This document shows, piece after piece, positions 34,960-37,901 of a stretch of 60,249 nucleotides of DNA. A program made the position numbers and the translations under genes. The DNA is from Bacteroidales bacterium (GTDB lineage: Bacteria > Bacteroidota > Bacteroidia > Bacteroidales > JAADGE01): NCBI GenBank assembly GCA_029934515.1, contig JAOZMB010000004.1, positions 1 to 60,249 on the forward strand, read 5' to 3'. The notes under the pieces are model-generated. The model searched no databases, was not told where the DNA came from, and was given only the letters and a program-made list of their open reading frames with translations. Numbering within the stretch: the first letter of the stretch is position 1; every line of letters starts with the position of its first letter.

Positions 34960-35721
34960 ATGAAAAATAATATAATTTTTGATAATGCGGCAATAGATAG
35001 ATTAATGAAAATTGCTAATATCAAACAAGAAAAATATGATGAATGGCTAATAAATGAAACAAATCTATCGAAAGAAAAAGAAAAAATATTGTCTTTTGGA
35101 AGAGTAACTTTGTCCAGTTTAAAAAAAGTGGTAAATATTGAACTTCGATACAATAAAATTAAATTTGATAATTGGTTTAATTATAAATACAAATTAGAAG
35201 AGGAGGAGAATATTTTTTTGGAAAATTTAATAGAAAAAAATCGTTTATATCTAACTCTTTATAACGAACAAACTTTGACTATAAAATTTATAGGATTAGT
35301 TTTAAATAAAGTGAACTTTATAAAAAAAGATATAAAAGATTGGTACGGATATAAAATAAAATGTAAATTAAATAACTATATCTTGAACGGCGAACCAGAC
35401 TTCACTGTTGCTACAGGAATAGAAGAACCTGAGACTCCTTATTTTTTCCTTCAAGAATACAAACGCTCTGTAAATCCCACTGGCAATCCAGAGTTCCAAG
35501 TTCTTGCTGCTATGCTCACCGCAATGACTTTAAACAAAACAAATAAAATAATAGGTGGATACATAATCGGAAGATATTGGAACTTTATTATTCTCGAAAA
35601 ATTAGAAAACGAGAAATACGAATACTTTGTTTCTGATGGATTTGATTGTTTGAAATTTGACGATTTAAAACAAATTTATATAAATTTGCAGGCAGTGAAA
35701 TTTTTATATTGTAAATTATAA
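34960..35721 (+). CDS. Uncharacterised PD-(D/E)xK-fold protein, paralog 1
   Basis: NE...GEPDF..A.G...P..PYFFLQEYKR...P.FQVLAAML; one of three tandem paralogs. Confidence 0.7.
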   Translation: MKNNIIFDNAAIDRLMKIANIKQEKYDEWLINETNLSKEKEKILSFGRVTLSSLKKVVNIELRYNKIKFDNWFNYKYKLEEEENIFLENLIEKNRLYLTLYNEQTLTIKFIGLVLNKVNFIKKDIKDWYGYKIKCKLNNYILNGEPDFTVATGIEEPETPYFFLQEYKRSVNPTGNPEFQVLAAMLTAMTLNKTNKIIGGYIIGRYWNFIILEKLENEKYEYFVSDGFDCLKFDDLKQIYINLQAVKFLYCKL

Positions 35722-35747
35722 ACTTAAAATAAAAATATTATGAAAAA
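35680..35747 (+). repeat. ~68-bp array junction direct repeat, copy A (others at 36294-36361 and 37074-37141; partial at 37854-37889)
   Basis: [68 protein letters not shown] at offset +60 in all three full copies. Confidence 0.9.
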
Positions 35748-35863
35748 AACACTCAAAATTTGATGTGTTTGCTCTAAAAATTTAATTAAAAAATTGTTTT
35801 TGTGAAAATAAAATTACTACATTTGTTTTTTTATTTCAATAACTATTTTTATTCGACTTAATA

Positions 35864-36115
35864 ATGGAAACAATAACAGAAAAAAAAGCAGGAATAATAA
35901 ACAAATTAGATTTATTGACAGAAGAAAAATTAAATAATGTAGAAATGTTTATTCAATTCCTTATTTACGAAAAACCGTTAGGAGAAAAACTAATTCATAG
36001 AAAAAAAAATAAAAAAAATGACAATGATTTTTTTGAAATATGTGGAATATGGCAAGATAGAAATATAGATGTAAATAGCTTACGAAAAAAAGCATGGAGG
36101 AATATCGAATGGTAA
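35864..36115 (+). CDS. Probable VapB-type antitoxin
   Basis: Small ORF ending FFEICGIWQDR.....LRKKAW, overlapping the PIN gene start. Confidence 0.7.
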   Translation: METITEKKAGIINKLDLLTEEKLNNVEMFIQFLIYEKPLGEKLIHRKKNKKNDNDFFEICGIWQDRNIDVNSLRKKAWRNIEW

Positions 36116-36294
36116 TTTTAGATACAAATATTGTTATCGAGTTGTTTAAAAACAACCAAAATATCAAACAAAAAATTAAAGATATCGGAACTAAAAATCT
36201 TGCAATTTCAGTTGGTGAATTTTATTACGGTGCTTTAAATAAACGTGAAATGAAACTTATTAAGAAGCATTGCAATTATTACTATGTACTTTAA
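36109..36294 (+). pseudogene. Truncated VapC/PIN toxin
   Basis: MVILDTNIVIE...AISVGEFYYGA PIN N-terminus; only 61 aa, ending exactly at junction repeat copy B. Confidence 0.8.
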
Positions 36295-36353
36295 TAAATT
36301 TGCAAGCAGTGAAATTTTTATATTGTAAATTATAACCTTAAAACAAAAATATT

Positions 36354-37115
36354 ATGAAAAATAATATAATTTTTGATAATATGGCAATAGAAAGACTAAT
36401 AAAAATTGCTAATATCAAACAAGAAAAATATGAAGAATGGCTAATAAATGAAAATTATTTATCGCAAGCAAAAGAAAAAAAATTAAATTTCCGTGCAGCA
36501 ACAATAGAAAAATTAATAGAAATTGTAAACATAGAGCAGATAGTCGAAGAAGATAAATTCAACGAATGGTTTTCATATAAATACGAACTTAAAGAAGAAG
36601 AAAATCTTTTTTTAAAAGAACTTATAAAAGATAATATAATTTATTTATCTTCTTTTAACGAAAGAACTTTAACAGCAAAATTTATAGTGCCTATTTTAAA
36701 TAAGATAAAATTTAGAAATAAAAGAGTAAAAGATTGGTATGAATATTCAATAAGTTGCAGATTAAATGACTATATATTGAATGGATTTCCAGATTTCTTT
36801 GTTGCTTCTGGAATAGACGAACCAAAGGAGCCTTATTTCTTCTTACAGGAATACAAAAGAGAAATTAAATCATCTGGACATCCAAAATATCAGGTCATTG
36901 CTGCCATGCTTGCCGCCATGACTTTAAACAAAACAAATACAATAATAGGTGGATACATAATTGGCAGATATTGGAACTTTATTATTCTTGATAAATTAGA
37001 AAACGAGAAATACGAATATTTTATTTCTGATGGATTTGATTGTTTGAAATTTGACGATTTAAAACAAATTTATATAAATTTGCAAGCAGTGAAATTTTTA
37101 TATTGTAAATTATAA
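36354..37115 (+). CDS. Uncharacterised PD-(D/E)xK-fold protein, paralog 2
   Basis: GFPDF, PYFFLQEYKR, YQVIAAML; termini near-identical to paralog 1. Confidence 0.7.
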   Translation: MKNNIIFDNMAIERLIKIANIKQEKYEEWLINENYLSQAKEKKLNFRAATIEKLIEIVNIEQIVEEDKFNEWFSYKYELKEEENLFLKELIKDNIIYLSSFNERTLTAKFIVPILNKIKFRNKRVKDWYEYSISCRLNDYILNGFPDFFVASGIDEPKEPYFFLQEYKREIKSSGHPKYQVIAAMLAAMTLNKTNTIIGGYIIGRYWNFIILDKLENEKYEYFISDGFDCLKFDDLKQIYINLQAVKFLYCKL

Positions 37116-37133
37116 CCTTAAAACAAAAATATT

Positions 37134-37901
37134 ATGAAAAATAATATAATTCTTGATGATGCAGCAATGGAAAGATTAATAAAAATTGCTAATATCAAAC
37201 AAGAAAAATATGATGAATGGCTAATAAATGAAAAAAATCTATCGAAAGAAAAAGAAAAAAATTTGTCTTTTGGAAACTCAACAATAGAAAAATTAATGGA
37301 AATTGTTGATATAGAGCGGGTTTCAAATAAAAATAAGTTTAATAAATGGTTTGATTACAAATACAAATTATCAGAAAATGAGAATAACTTTTTGGAGAAC
37401 CTAATTGAAGAGAACGAACTATTTTTGACATTTTACAACGAGCAAAATTTAACAACAAAATTTATAGCTCCTATTTTGAACAAAATAAAATTCCAGAATA
37501 AGTACATAAAAGATTGGTACGGATACAAAATAAAATGCAAATTGAACGGTTATTTTTTAAGCGGAGAACCAGATTTTTCTATTGCAACTGGAATTTCTGT
37601 TCCTAAAACACCTTACTTTTTCTTGCAGGAATACAAACGTTCTATAAATCCGAAAGGAAATCCAGAGTTCCAAGTTCTTGCAGCTATGCTTACAGCCACA
37701 ACATTGAATAATACAAACGAAATAAAAGGCGGTTATATTATCGGAGAACTTTGGAAGTTTATTGTCCTCAAAAAATTAGAAAACGAGAAATACGAATATT
37801 TTGTTTCTGATGGATTTGATTGTTTGAAACTTAACGATTTAAAACAAATTTACATAAATTTGCAAGCAGTGAAATTTTTATATTGTAAAGTAGAATATTA
37901 A
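37134..37901 (+). CDS. Uncharacterised PD-(D/E)xK-fold protein, paralog 3
   Basis: GEPDF, PYFFLQEYKR, FQVLAAML; termini near-identical to paralogs 1 and 2. Confidence 0.7.
   Translation: MKNNIILDDAAMERLIKIANIKQEKYDEWLINEKNLSKEKEKNLSFGNSTIEKLMEIVDIERVSNKNKFNKWFDYKYKLSENENNFLENLIEENELFLTFYNEQNLTTKFIAPILNKIKFQNKYIKDWYGYKIKCKLNGYFLSGEPDFSIATGISVPKTPYFFLQEYKRSINPKGNPEFQVLAAMLTATTLNNTNEIKGGYIIGELWKFIVLKKLENEKYEYFVSDGFDCLKLNDLKQIYINLQAVKFLYCKVEY

What the first reader, a model, noticed from the sequence alone, without database searches (positions are those of the whole stretch)
34960..37901. Tandem array of mosaic PD-(D/E)xK-fold genes with constant ends and variable cores
Three 253-255 aa paralogs have near-identical first ~43 and last ~40 codons at the DNA level but strongly diverged middles around a conserved E...PD...QEYK...Q core. 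The middles are mosaic. Paralogs 1 and 3 share IKDWYGYKIKCKLN..GEPDF and RS.NP.GNPEFQVLAAMLTA, whereas 1 and 2 share AMTLNKTN.IIGGYIIGRYWNFIIL. The pattern fits recombination or gene conversion between constant flanks that diversifies a nuclease-like repertoire. This is a candidate undescribed diversifying defence or conflict system; no methyltransferase or recombinase lies next to it.
Basis: partly seen in the sequence, partly recalled or inferred. Interest (0 to 1): 0.72.

Follow-up and report, generated by a model that had tools for sequence, protein, structure and literature searches.

The report
Nuclease gene arrays that swap cores
These three genes are one of about 16 tandem arrays of a predicted DNA-cutting protein family with roughly 59 copies in this genome; array neighbours share their gene ends but carry middles related to other loci, which likely lets ordinary recombination reshuffle a repertoire of probable defence nucleases.

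Summary
The three paralogs have 89-97% identical ends, with synonymous sites also alike, around cores only 66-72% identical. They are 3 of about 59 copies of a partner-less PD-(D/E)xK-fold family, the largest paralog family in this genome. Genome-wide, 25 of 29 arrayed genes have their closest 3' end in their own array, but only 11 of 29 have their closest core there. A tree test rejects a common origin of the three cores (p 1.5e-7). The motifs shared by paralogs 1 and 3 are old kinship, not recent conversion. No integron integrase, reverse transcriptase or Cas1 was found, so ordinary homologous recombination is the likely driver. Catalytic residues are intact in 41 of 46 near-full-length copies. 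Defence is inferred, not shown. Similar expansions occur in related Bacteroidales and giant sulfur bacteria. Unexpectedly, the best structural matches are mitoribosomal mL37/mL65.

The parts
34868..34895 (-). Degenerate heptamer tandem array (MACTAAM type) between valS and g1. The genome has 93 strict arrays of this type, 15 of them within 300 bp of a family gene.
34960..35721 (+). g1, 253 aa stand-alone PD-(D/E)xK-fold protein. Its core is closest to C95/C100 paralogs (76% nt). Predicted catalytic residues are E103, D147, E166 and K168.
34960..35088 (+). Array-specific 5' constant segment (codons 1-43). It encodes a predicted two-helix extension that most homologs lack and is 89-93% identical in g1, g2 and g3.
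35527..35721 (+). 3' tract shared by g1 and g2 from about codon 190 (recent exchange). From codon 214 it is shared by all three genes.
35680..35747 (+). Junction copy J1: last 13 sense codons plus the stop of the gene, an 18-nt spacer, and the first 8 nt of a following copy. 65 of 68 nt match J2.
35864..36115 (+). 83-aa DUF2281-like antitoxin candidate (weak Pfam hit, E 0.052). A 96% identical copy lies on contig C72.
36109..36297 (+). Truncated PIN/VapC-like gene (weak hits) that stops at the junction repeat. One public run carries 9 more bases in it.
36294..36361 (+). Junction copy J2: an orphan 3' end of a family gene, the spacer and the start of g2. The repeat with J3 extends to 188 bp (175 matching).
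36354..37115 (+). g2, 253 aa. Its core is sister to C59_1998 (86% nt; support 100/98), not to g1 or g3.
37074..37141 (+). Junction copy J3 between g2 and g3.
37134..37901 (+). g3, 255 aa, last copy before the KdsC-like gene. Its core is closest to C95_6264 (78% nt). A strain variant has substitutions at 37541, 37555 and 37565.

Best explanation
The three genes are one tandem array of a stand-alone PD-(D/E)xK-fold family with about 59 copies in this genome, whose array neighbours share gene ends but carry cores related to other loci, likely because ordinary homologous recombination starts in the repeated junction while cores move between loci, and the proteins are predicted nucleases that probably act as a varied defence repertoire against foreign DNA. 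Shown: (1) the expansion, with no conserved partner gene; (2) a repeated junction of gene end, spacer and next start; (3) ends that group by array and cores that do not; (4) recombination signal inside cores across loci; (5) catalytic residues retained under purifying selection. Inferred: (6) unequal exchange or gene conversion initiates in the junction, which is over 90% identical, and usually stalls where neighbours fall to about 70% identity, so ends are homogenised and cores survive; (7) rarer exchanges at conserved motifs import whole or partial cores from other loci or strains; (8) different cores have different targets or triggers, and the enzymes are kept off self DNA by the host's many methyltransferases, by low activity or by needing an activator. 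I put steps 6-7 at about 0.8 and step 8 at about 0.5.
For: Ends versus core synonymous divergence, p 1e-6 to 2e-13. Best 3'-end match in own array for 25 of 29 arrayed genes, best core match for 11 of 29. 3'-end synonymous identity exceeds the core's in 15 of 16 tandem pairs (p 3e-4) and in 10 of 11 after leaving out this array and pairs with identical 3' ends (p 0.01). The excess is larger than in 201 non-tandem control pairs (p 3e-4 and 0.016). 13 of 14 significant identical tracts among 1479 pairs are within one contig. The AU test rejects monophyly of the three cores, p 1.5e-7. PHI-type test within cores p 0.001, also with one gene per contig. Independent examples: L193 pair ends 0.99/0.99 with core 0.77; L190 pair 0.91/0.97 with core 0.73. 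Fold: pLDDT 94.9 model matches the nuclease domains of BpuSI (Z 10.6, rmsd 4.1, 148 aligned), DrdV (Z 9.6) and HsdR (Z 8.7); PADLOC PD_DExK E 1.7e-7 to 5.6e-10. E/D/E/K kept in 41 of 46 genome copies and 210 of 222 overall. Core dN/dS median 0.32. 31 N6-methyltransferase matches in the genome.
Against: No activity, target or expression data. No sign of positive selection in cores. The array is almost invariant in the runs laid. In other organisms the mean 3'-end excess of tandem pairs (0.08; 17 of 27 positive) equals the non-tandem background of this genome (0.08), and the 5'-end excess is not significant (15 of 25, p 0.12), so the pattern is strong only in some lineages and pairs. No close donor for the g1 or g3 core is in the assembly (best 76-78%), and the g2 sister differs at pS 0.41, so core import is old or came from unassembled or foreign copies. 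Copies sit among housekeeping genes, not in defence islands, in the 19 family regions read. The top structural matches are non-nuclease ribosomal proteins. The PHI test is my own implementation without a simulated null.
Confidence: 0.5

Rival explanations
1. Neutral or selfish expansion. The same recombination happens, but the genes are mobile accessory cargo or free-standing selfish endonucleases. Identical tandem duplicates collapse, and only those frozen by a diverged core persist, so the pattern needs no benefit to the host.
For: No conserved partner among 465 neighbours of 150 loci in other genomes (367 clusters, the largest in 6 loci). Patchy distribution: 1 of 30 relatives and 2 of 400 phylum genomes match, against 5-56 matches in ten genomes chosen for having a hit. 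Broken copies exist (C61, C152, C193). Copies are associated with heptamer repeats and a decayed toxin-antitoxin pair.
Against: No match in 50,697 phage records, 72,556 plasmid records or the viral contig scan. No terminal inverted repeats at the junctions. Most copies keep an intact frame and catalytic residues, although a selfish nuclease would do the same.
Confidence: 0.3
2. The proteins act on or bind RNA rather than foreign DNA, for example as ribosome- or tRNA-directed toxins or RNA-binding factors, and are bacterial relatives of the mitoribosomal pseudo-nucleases mL37/mL65.
For: The top Foldseek matches (E 1.4e-7, TMq about 0.5; all 17 listed rows of the 19 at E <= 0.001) and the top two VIA-align matches (Z 14.6, rmsd 11.8, 231 aligned; Z 13.3, rmsd 5.7, 222 aligned) are chains 5 and s of the mitoribosome large subunit. 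I identify these chains as mL37 and mL65 from recall. PMC8998825 calls them repurposed endonucleases that bind rRNA.
Against: Identity is 6-12% and rmsd is high. Profile searches of PDB sequences find no mL37/mL65 hit at E <= 1 or E <= 10. The tighter superpositions (rmsd 3.4-4.7) are to DNA restriction domains. A shared fold shows no function.
Confidence: 0.1
3. A programmed cassette system: the 68-bp junction is a recombination site used by a dedicated enzyme, as in integrons or antigenic-variation loci, to insert and excise cores.
For: The junction repeat flanks an unrelated toxin-antitoxin remnant as if it were a cassette, and also flanks g2. Arrays have their own repeated junctions.
Against: Junction sequences differ from array to array and have no attC-like hairpin. 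No integron integrase over the cut-off, no reverse transcriptase and no Cas1 were found; only one tyrosine recombinase, on another contig (assembly 98% complete). Tract ends vary (codon 190 versus 214), as expected of homologous rather than site-specific exchange.
Confidence: 0.07
4. Assembly artefact: a short-read assembler collapsed or mis-joined similar gene ends.
For: 18 of 36 contigs with the family have a copy within 400 bp of an end. Some other arrays have 100% identical 3' ends. No laid contig spans the whole array.
Against: The ends here differ by 3-11%. Single contigs of public runs span end-to-core boundaries with 0 differences: 35030-35659 (X1), 36644-37110 and 37081-37233 (X5), 37204-37804 (X7). 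The effect survives removal of identical-end pairs. The three proteins are each recorded on 2 contigs, the longest 155 kb.
Confidence: 0.03

Closest known systems
PD-DExK accessory family of type III CRISPR loci (cluster 45, Marme_0670; PMC6546367; PADLOC PDLC01472)
   Same: Significant profile match over residues ~107-219; a small stand-alone restriction-endonuclease-like protein proposed to restrict invader DNA (passages read).
   Different: Partial and distant match. No Cas1 in this genome and no cas genes recognised beside the copies read. The passages read do not describe tandem arrays or tens of copies.
Nuclease domain of type I HsdR (HSDR_N, PF04313) and type IIG enzymes (BpuSI, DrdV)
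   Same: Predicted fold (Z 8.7-10.6). The nearest Atlas clusters include 'restriction endonuclease subunit R family protein', with HSDR_N on 16% of members of one cluster.
   Different: No helicase, methyltransferase or specificity domain, and no hsdM/hsdS neighbour. No Pfam HSDR_N hit for g1-g3 or the 148 aligned members.
Target-recognition-domain movement in Helicobacter pylori RM genes (PMC3467074; DoMo, PMC3077401)
   Same: A variable middle moves between loci by recombination at conserved flanks, giving incongruent trees (abstract and Discussion read; for PMC3077401 only the search listing was seen).
   Different: There the moving part is a recognition domain of a methyltransferase or specificity subunit. 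Here it is the whole catalytic core of a partner-less nuclease, in tandem arrays with array-specific ends.
Staphylococcus aureus lpl tandem paralog cluster (PMC2568036)
   Same: The unit of evolution spans the 3' end of one gene, the spacer and the 5' end of the next (abstract read).
   Different: Mirror image: in lpl the gene centre is the conserved crossover site and the junction unit varies. Here the junction is constant within an array and the centre varies. The proteins are unrelated.
Rpn (YhgA-like) PD-(D/E)xK toxins with intragenic antitoxins (bioRxiv 10.1101/2023.05.02.539157)
   Same: Multi-copy, partner-less PD-(D/E)xK genes that move horizontally and protect against phage (abstract read).
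   Different: No Pfam hit to Rpn families. Rpn has a conserved nuclease and a variable C-terminal tail; here the tail is constant and the core varies.
Multi-copy accessory genes and heptamer repeats shared by Beggiatoaceae, cyanobacteria and some Bacteroidetes (BOGUAY_0693, TAACTGA; PMC4679880)
   Same: Similar host range, tens of copies per genome, intergenic heptamer arrays (passages and a supplement search read).
   Different: I could not obtain the BOGUAY_0693 sequence, so identity with this family is untested. The heptamer here is MACTAAM; TAACTGA doublets number 0 in this genome.
Mitoribosomal mL37/mL65 pseudo-endonucleases
   Same: Best structural matches in two programs, covering most of the model.
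   Different: No sequence-level link. They are eukaryotic rRNA-binding proteins, while this family keeps the catalytic residues.

Membership tests
PD-(D/E)xK superfamily | Restriction-endonuclease-like alpha/beta core | tested here: met
   Model pLDDT 94.9; most of the top 50 VIA-align rows are restriction-fold proteins.
PD-(D/E)xK superfamily | Conserved (E)...PD...(D/E)xK catalytic residues | tested here: met
   E103, D147, E166 and K168 are at least 90% conserved in 148 sequences and present in 210 of 222 genes.
PD-(D/E)xK superfamily | Metal-dependent phosphodiesterase activity | not testable with these tools
   Needs an assay.
Type I / IIG restriction-modification system | Cognate methyltransferase or specificity and helicase parts fused or adjacent | tested here: not met
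   Flanks are valS and a KdsC-like gene; no recurring partner in 150 loci. The RM pair 3.9 kb upstream has its own NotI-like nuclease.
HSDR_N (PF04313) | Pfam score above the cut-off | tested here: not met
   No hit for g1-g3 at E <= 0.1 or for 148 members at E <= 0.01; only an Atlas lead at 16% of one cluster.
Type III CRISPR accessory PD-DExK (cluster 45) | Match to the family profile | tested here: inconclusive
   E 1.7e-7 to 5.6e-10 over positions 7-121 of 146; no curated cut-off given.
Type III CRISPR accessory PD-DExK (cluster 45) | Located in a type III cas cassette | tested here: not met
   No cas gene adjacent in the window; no Cas1 in the genome. Cas10 was not searched.
Integron cassette array | IntI integrase and attC hairpins | tested here: not met
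   TIGR02249 best 101.6 bits against cut-off 265; no long inverted repeat at the junctions.
Diversity-generating retroelement | Reverse transcriptase and a template/variable repeat pair | tested here: not met
   No RVT_1 match in the assembly; variation lies in the gene middle and involves all bases.
Rpn toxin with intragenic antitoxin | Rpn/Transposase_31 domain and variable C-terminal tail | tested here: not met
   No Pfam hit; the C-terminus is among the most conserved parts.
Tandem paralogs evolving by junction-spanning recombination (lpl / TRD-movement type) | Phylogenetic incongruence between gene ends and middle | tested here: met
   AU p 1.5e-7; end trees group g1-g3; 25 of 29 versus 11 of 29.
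Tandem paralogs evolving by junction-spanning recombination (lpl / TRD-movement type) | Rearranged alleles among strains of one species | tested here: inconclusive
   Only short contigs were available. One database protein (P0002) joins the g3 body to the g1/g2-type end, but a mis-join at a 36-nt repeat cannot be excluded.
mL37/mL65 family | Homology beyond a shared fold | tested here: inconclusive
   Top structural hits but no sequence hit; the core-only control model had not finished.

The most novel reading that the evidence does not exclude
Large-celled and sediment-dwelling bacteria carry a previously undescribed, recombinase-free diversifying defence system. Tens of stand-alone restriction-like nucleases sit in array slots with constant ends, and whole catalytic cores with different target specificities are shuffled among slots and strains. 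The family may also be the closest bacterial relative of mitoribosomal mL37/mL65.
Probability: 0.25. Interest if true: 0.78.

Novelty: new variant of a known kind. Interest (0 to 1): 0.52.

Why it matters
Defence-system searches rely on partner genes and defence islands, so a partner-less nuclease family scattered in tens of copies among housekeeping genes would be missed. This family has no Pfam or NCBIfam model, yet it is the largest paralog family in this genome and is expanded in related Bacteroidales and in giant sulfur bacteria such as Achromatium, Thiomargarita and Parabeggiatoa. Three natural variants with near-identical ends and different cores are a ready-made test of whether the core sets specificity. 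If so, they would be a new source of small nucleases and a clear bacterial case of concerted evolution acting on gene junctions rather than genes. The structural match to mL37/mL65 offers a testable lead on the origin of two animal mitoribosomal proteins. If the proteins are only selfish cargo, the finding is a tidy example of known tandem-paralog dynamics.

Tried and rejected
Family libraries: no Pfam or NCBIfam family names g1-g3. PDB sequence searches with two profiles gave nothing significant.

Dedicated machinery: integron integrase, reverse transcriptase and Cas1 were not found in the assembly. Inverted-repeat and promoter/terminator scans gave nothing specific.

Mobile elements: no match in phage, plasmid or viral contig collections at the sensitivity used.

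Orthologous locus: no fetched locus from other genomes lies between valS and kdsC orthologs, so the locus could not be compared across species. The first metagenome scan, with patterns from the constant ends, found nothing.

Complex prediction: the homodimer job returned no verdict (score 0.23, mark 0.42). It was meant to test whether the constant ends form a shared interface; that idea remains open.

Expression: no RNA holder listed.

Strain variant: the three substitutions in g3 match no fetched paralog, so a conversion donor was not found.

Recent g1/g3 conversion was rejected (pS 0.68). Positive selection in cores was not seen (the single ratio above 1 came from a very distant pair). The idea that the N-terminal extension duplicates residues 45-73 got only weak support (E 0.003 for one pairwise comparison).

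A core-only structure model (alignment A6) was submitted but had not finished, so the mL37/mL65 match is untested on a second model.

Literature: ten searches returned no paper describing arrays of this family. MacGregor et al. 2013 on Maribeggiatoa mobile elements and a recalled 2016 paper on Crinkler nuclease domains were not held, and either may cover this family. PMC3424549 and PMC4853749 passages had nothing on it.
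Full report
Observation. In DNA, codons 1-43 are 89-93% identical, codons 214-252 are 96-97% identical and codons 44-213 are 66-72% identical. Synonymous sites differ at about 10% in the ends and at 54-77% in the core (Fisher p 1e-6 to 2e-13). The 5' segment is poorly conserved between loci (entropy line) and absent from most homologs, whose matches start near residue 40. Its constancy inside the array is therefore a DNA-level event, not protein constraint. Mosaicism is significant (runs p 2e-4; MaxChi break at codon 189, p 0.006).

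Anatomy. The flanks are valS and a KdsC-like HAD hydrolase (the KdsC label is my reading). Between g1 and g2 lie an 83-aa DUF2281-like gene and a truncated PIN gene, both weak hits, with a 96% identical partial copy on contig C72. This remnant is flanked by a 68-bp direct repeat (35680-35747 and 36294-36361, 65 of 68 identical) made of a gene 3' end, the spacer and the first 8 bases of the next copy. g2 is flanked by the same junction extended to 188 bp. The repeated unit is thus the junction. A NotI-like nuclease with a methyltransferase lies 3.9 kb upstream, beyond valS and a transporter, and looks like a separate type II system.

Is it real? Eight public DNA runs (hydrothermal vent and marine sediment, 3 studies) hold part of the stretch; one may be the source sample. 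I laid 6 of the 8. Single contigs bridge end-to-core boundaries with no differences: 35030-35659 (X1), 36644-37110 and 37081-37233 (X5), 37204-37804 (X7). No contig spans the whole array, so gene order rests on the assembly. Run X3 has three substitutions in g3, ten in the antitoxin region and 9 extra bases in the PIN remnant. Database protein P0002 is g3 with one of those changes and the g1/g2-type C-terminus. That may be a rearranged allele or a mis-join at a 36-base repeat.

The family in this genome. An iterated profile found 61 ORF pieces on 36 contigs at 37 loci. Counting two split genes once gives about 59 genes and 16 tandem arrays (my count). It is the largest paralog family in the genome (clusters of 40 and 10; the largest unrelated cluster has 11). 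In the 19 family regions read (of 20 fetched, the other being the C72 antitoxin copy), copies sit mostly between ordinary genes, judged from ORF starts rather than a library scan. Of 46 near-full-length copies, 41 keep E103, D147, E166 and K168. Core dN/dS has a median of 0.32 over the 43 pairs with unsaturated dS.

The pattern is general here. Among 29 arrayed near-full-length genes, the best 3'-end match is in the same array for 25 and the best core match for 11. 3'-end synonymous identity exceeds the core's in 15 of 16 tandem pairs and 5'-end identity in 12 of 14; both exceed non-tandem controls (p 3e-4 and 7e-4). Leaving out this array and pairs with identical 3' ends, it holds in 10 of 11. 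Of 1479 pairs, 14 have significantly long identical tracts, 13 of them within one contig. In a 26-row core tree g2 is sister to C59_1998 (100/98), and holding g1-g3 together is rejected (AU p 1.5e-7), while trees of the ends group them (support 0.976 for the 5' end, 0.742 for the 3' end). A PHI-type test inside cores gives p 0.001 for 14 long-form genes and for 12 genes taken one per contig (own code, permutation null only).

Elsewhere. One of 30 relatives and 2 of 400 genomes of the phylum match (at most 7 candidates scored per genome). Scans by motif found relatives in Bacteroidales genomes, Thiomargarita, Achromatium, Parabeggiatoa, Thioploca, Marithrix, Thiovulum, Sulfurovum, Sulfurimonas, Methylococcaceae and Leptospiraceae (best 80 of 184 kept). 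Ten genomes chosen for a hit hold 5, 56, 34, 18, 9, 12, 35, 22, 11 and 42 matches, fragments included. Of 150 fetched loci, 35 carry two or more family ORFs, and no partner recurs in more than 6 loci. Clear constant-end pairs exist in another Bacteroidales genome (L193: 0.99, 0.77, 0.99) and in Achromatium (L190: 0.91, 0.73, 0.97). Averaged over 27 foreign pairs, however, the 3' excess (0.08) equals this genome's non-tandem background, so the effect is lineage- or pair-specific. I place the host in Bacteroidota by inference from type IX secretion and TonB genes and from its closest relatives.

The protein. The model is confident (pLDDT 94.9): two N-terminal helices (the add-on), a helical segment, then an alpha/beta core. 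PADLOC's PD_DExK profile matches, and the Atlas places it among hypothetical and 'restriction endonuclease subunit R' clusters of cyanobacteria and Bacteroidota. Structure comparison gives the nuclease domains of BpuSI (Z 10.6, rmsd 4.1, 148 aligned), DrdV (9.6, 3.4, 135) and HsdR (8.7, 4.7, 122). Above them rank two mitoribosomal chains (Z 14.6, rmsd 11.8, 231 aligned; Z 13.3, rmsd 5.7, 222 aligned), which also fill the top of the Foldseek list (E 1.4e-7). I identify these as mL37 and mL65 from recall of the chain labels; PMC8998825 describes that pair as repurposed endonucleases binding rRNA (passages). No sequence-level link was found, so this is a lead.

Mechanism. No integron integrase, reverse transcriptase or Cas1 was found, and only one tyrosine recombinase. 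Junctions differ between arrays and tract ends vary. The economical model, inferred, is host homologous recombination that starts in the junction and usually stalls in the diverged core, plus rarer exchange of cores between loci or strains. Whole-core homogenisation also occurs (467 identical bases between two C142 copies). Whether g2 arrived whole and had its ends overwritten, or only its core was imported, cannot be told: it differs from its sister at pS about 0.4 in the core and in the 3' end alike. For function I commit to a defence repertoire of nucleases with differing targets, on the grounds of fold, retained catalytic residues, purifying selection and a genome with 31 N6-methyltransferase matches. 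A selfish or neutral expansion explains the DNA pattern equally well.

Known systems. It works like target-recognition-domain movement in H. pylori (PMC3467074; abstract and Discussion read) and mirrors the S. aureus lpl cluster (PMC2568036; abstract). It is not a restriction-modification system, integron, retroelement or Rpn family member by the tests listed. PMC4679880 (passages and supplement search) mentions a hypothetical protein with 29 close copies in a Maribeggiatoa genome and a similar host range; whether it is this family is untested, and the 2013 paper that describes it was not held. Ten searches found no description of these arrays.

Verdict. The feature is real and is better described as a genome-wide repertoire than as a single locus. 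The recombination pattern is well supported and of a known evolutionary type, applied to an uncharacterised nuclease family. The defence role is plausible but unshown. New variant of a known kind; interest 0.52.

Noticed in passing
G000 genome-wide; window 34868-34895 (-): 93 tandem arrays of the heptamer MACTAAM (three or more units; 0 in 3 shuffles). 15 lie within 300 bp of a family gene, a footprint of 1.7% of the genome (binomial p 8e-11 against uniform placement, which overstates because arrays are likely intergenic). They recall the TAACTGA arrays of Beggiatoaceae but have a different unit.
   Followed up: partly
model m37fab4c38e72 of window 34960-35718: The best PDB structural matches in two programs are mitoribosomal mL37/mL65 rather than bacterial nucleases.
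   Followed up: partly
window 28648-31067 (-): Type II restriction-modification pair: a NotI-like nuclease and a 532-aa methyltransferase with a ~100-aa N-terminal extension.
   Followed up: no
window 39869-42203: A caspase-like peptidase (C14) gene converging on a STAND-type NTPase gene (nSTAND1 hit), typical of conflict or cell-death systems.
   Followed up: no
window 18441-18866 and 18215-18395: A 141-aa protein with no Pfam hit belongs to a 6-copy family, 3 of them in tandem. The DNA just upstream looks by eye like a decayed small toxin gene of the BrnT type (recalled resemblance, not tested).
   Followed up: no
window 42285-43499: Citrate lyase acyl-carrier (gamma) and lyase (beta) subunits appear fused in one 404-aa ORF.
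   Followed up: no
G000 genome-wide: 31 N6-methyltransferase matches in 3.3 Mb but only one tyrosine recombinase match, and no Cas1 or reverse transcriptase.
   Followed up: no
G000:C127 about 7147-7194 (-): An orphan 3' end of a family gene (16 codons) with no core, like the remnant before g2.
   Followed up: partly
L073, L134, L151, L162, L163: An Rpn-like gene (recognised by a recalled motif) neighbours the family in five loci of other genomes.
   Followed up: no
P0148, P0160, P0214: Homologs with a doubled domain (434 aa), a C-terminal fusion (397 aa) or a long N-terminal extension (333 aa) show that the ends of this family accept add-ons.
   Followed up: no
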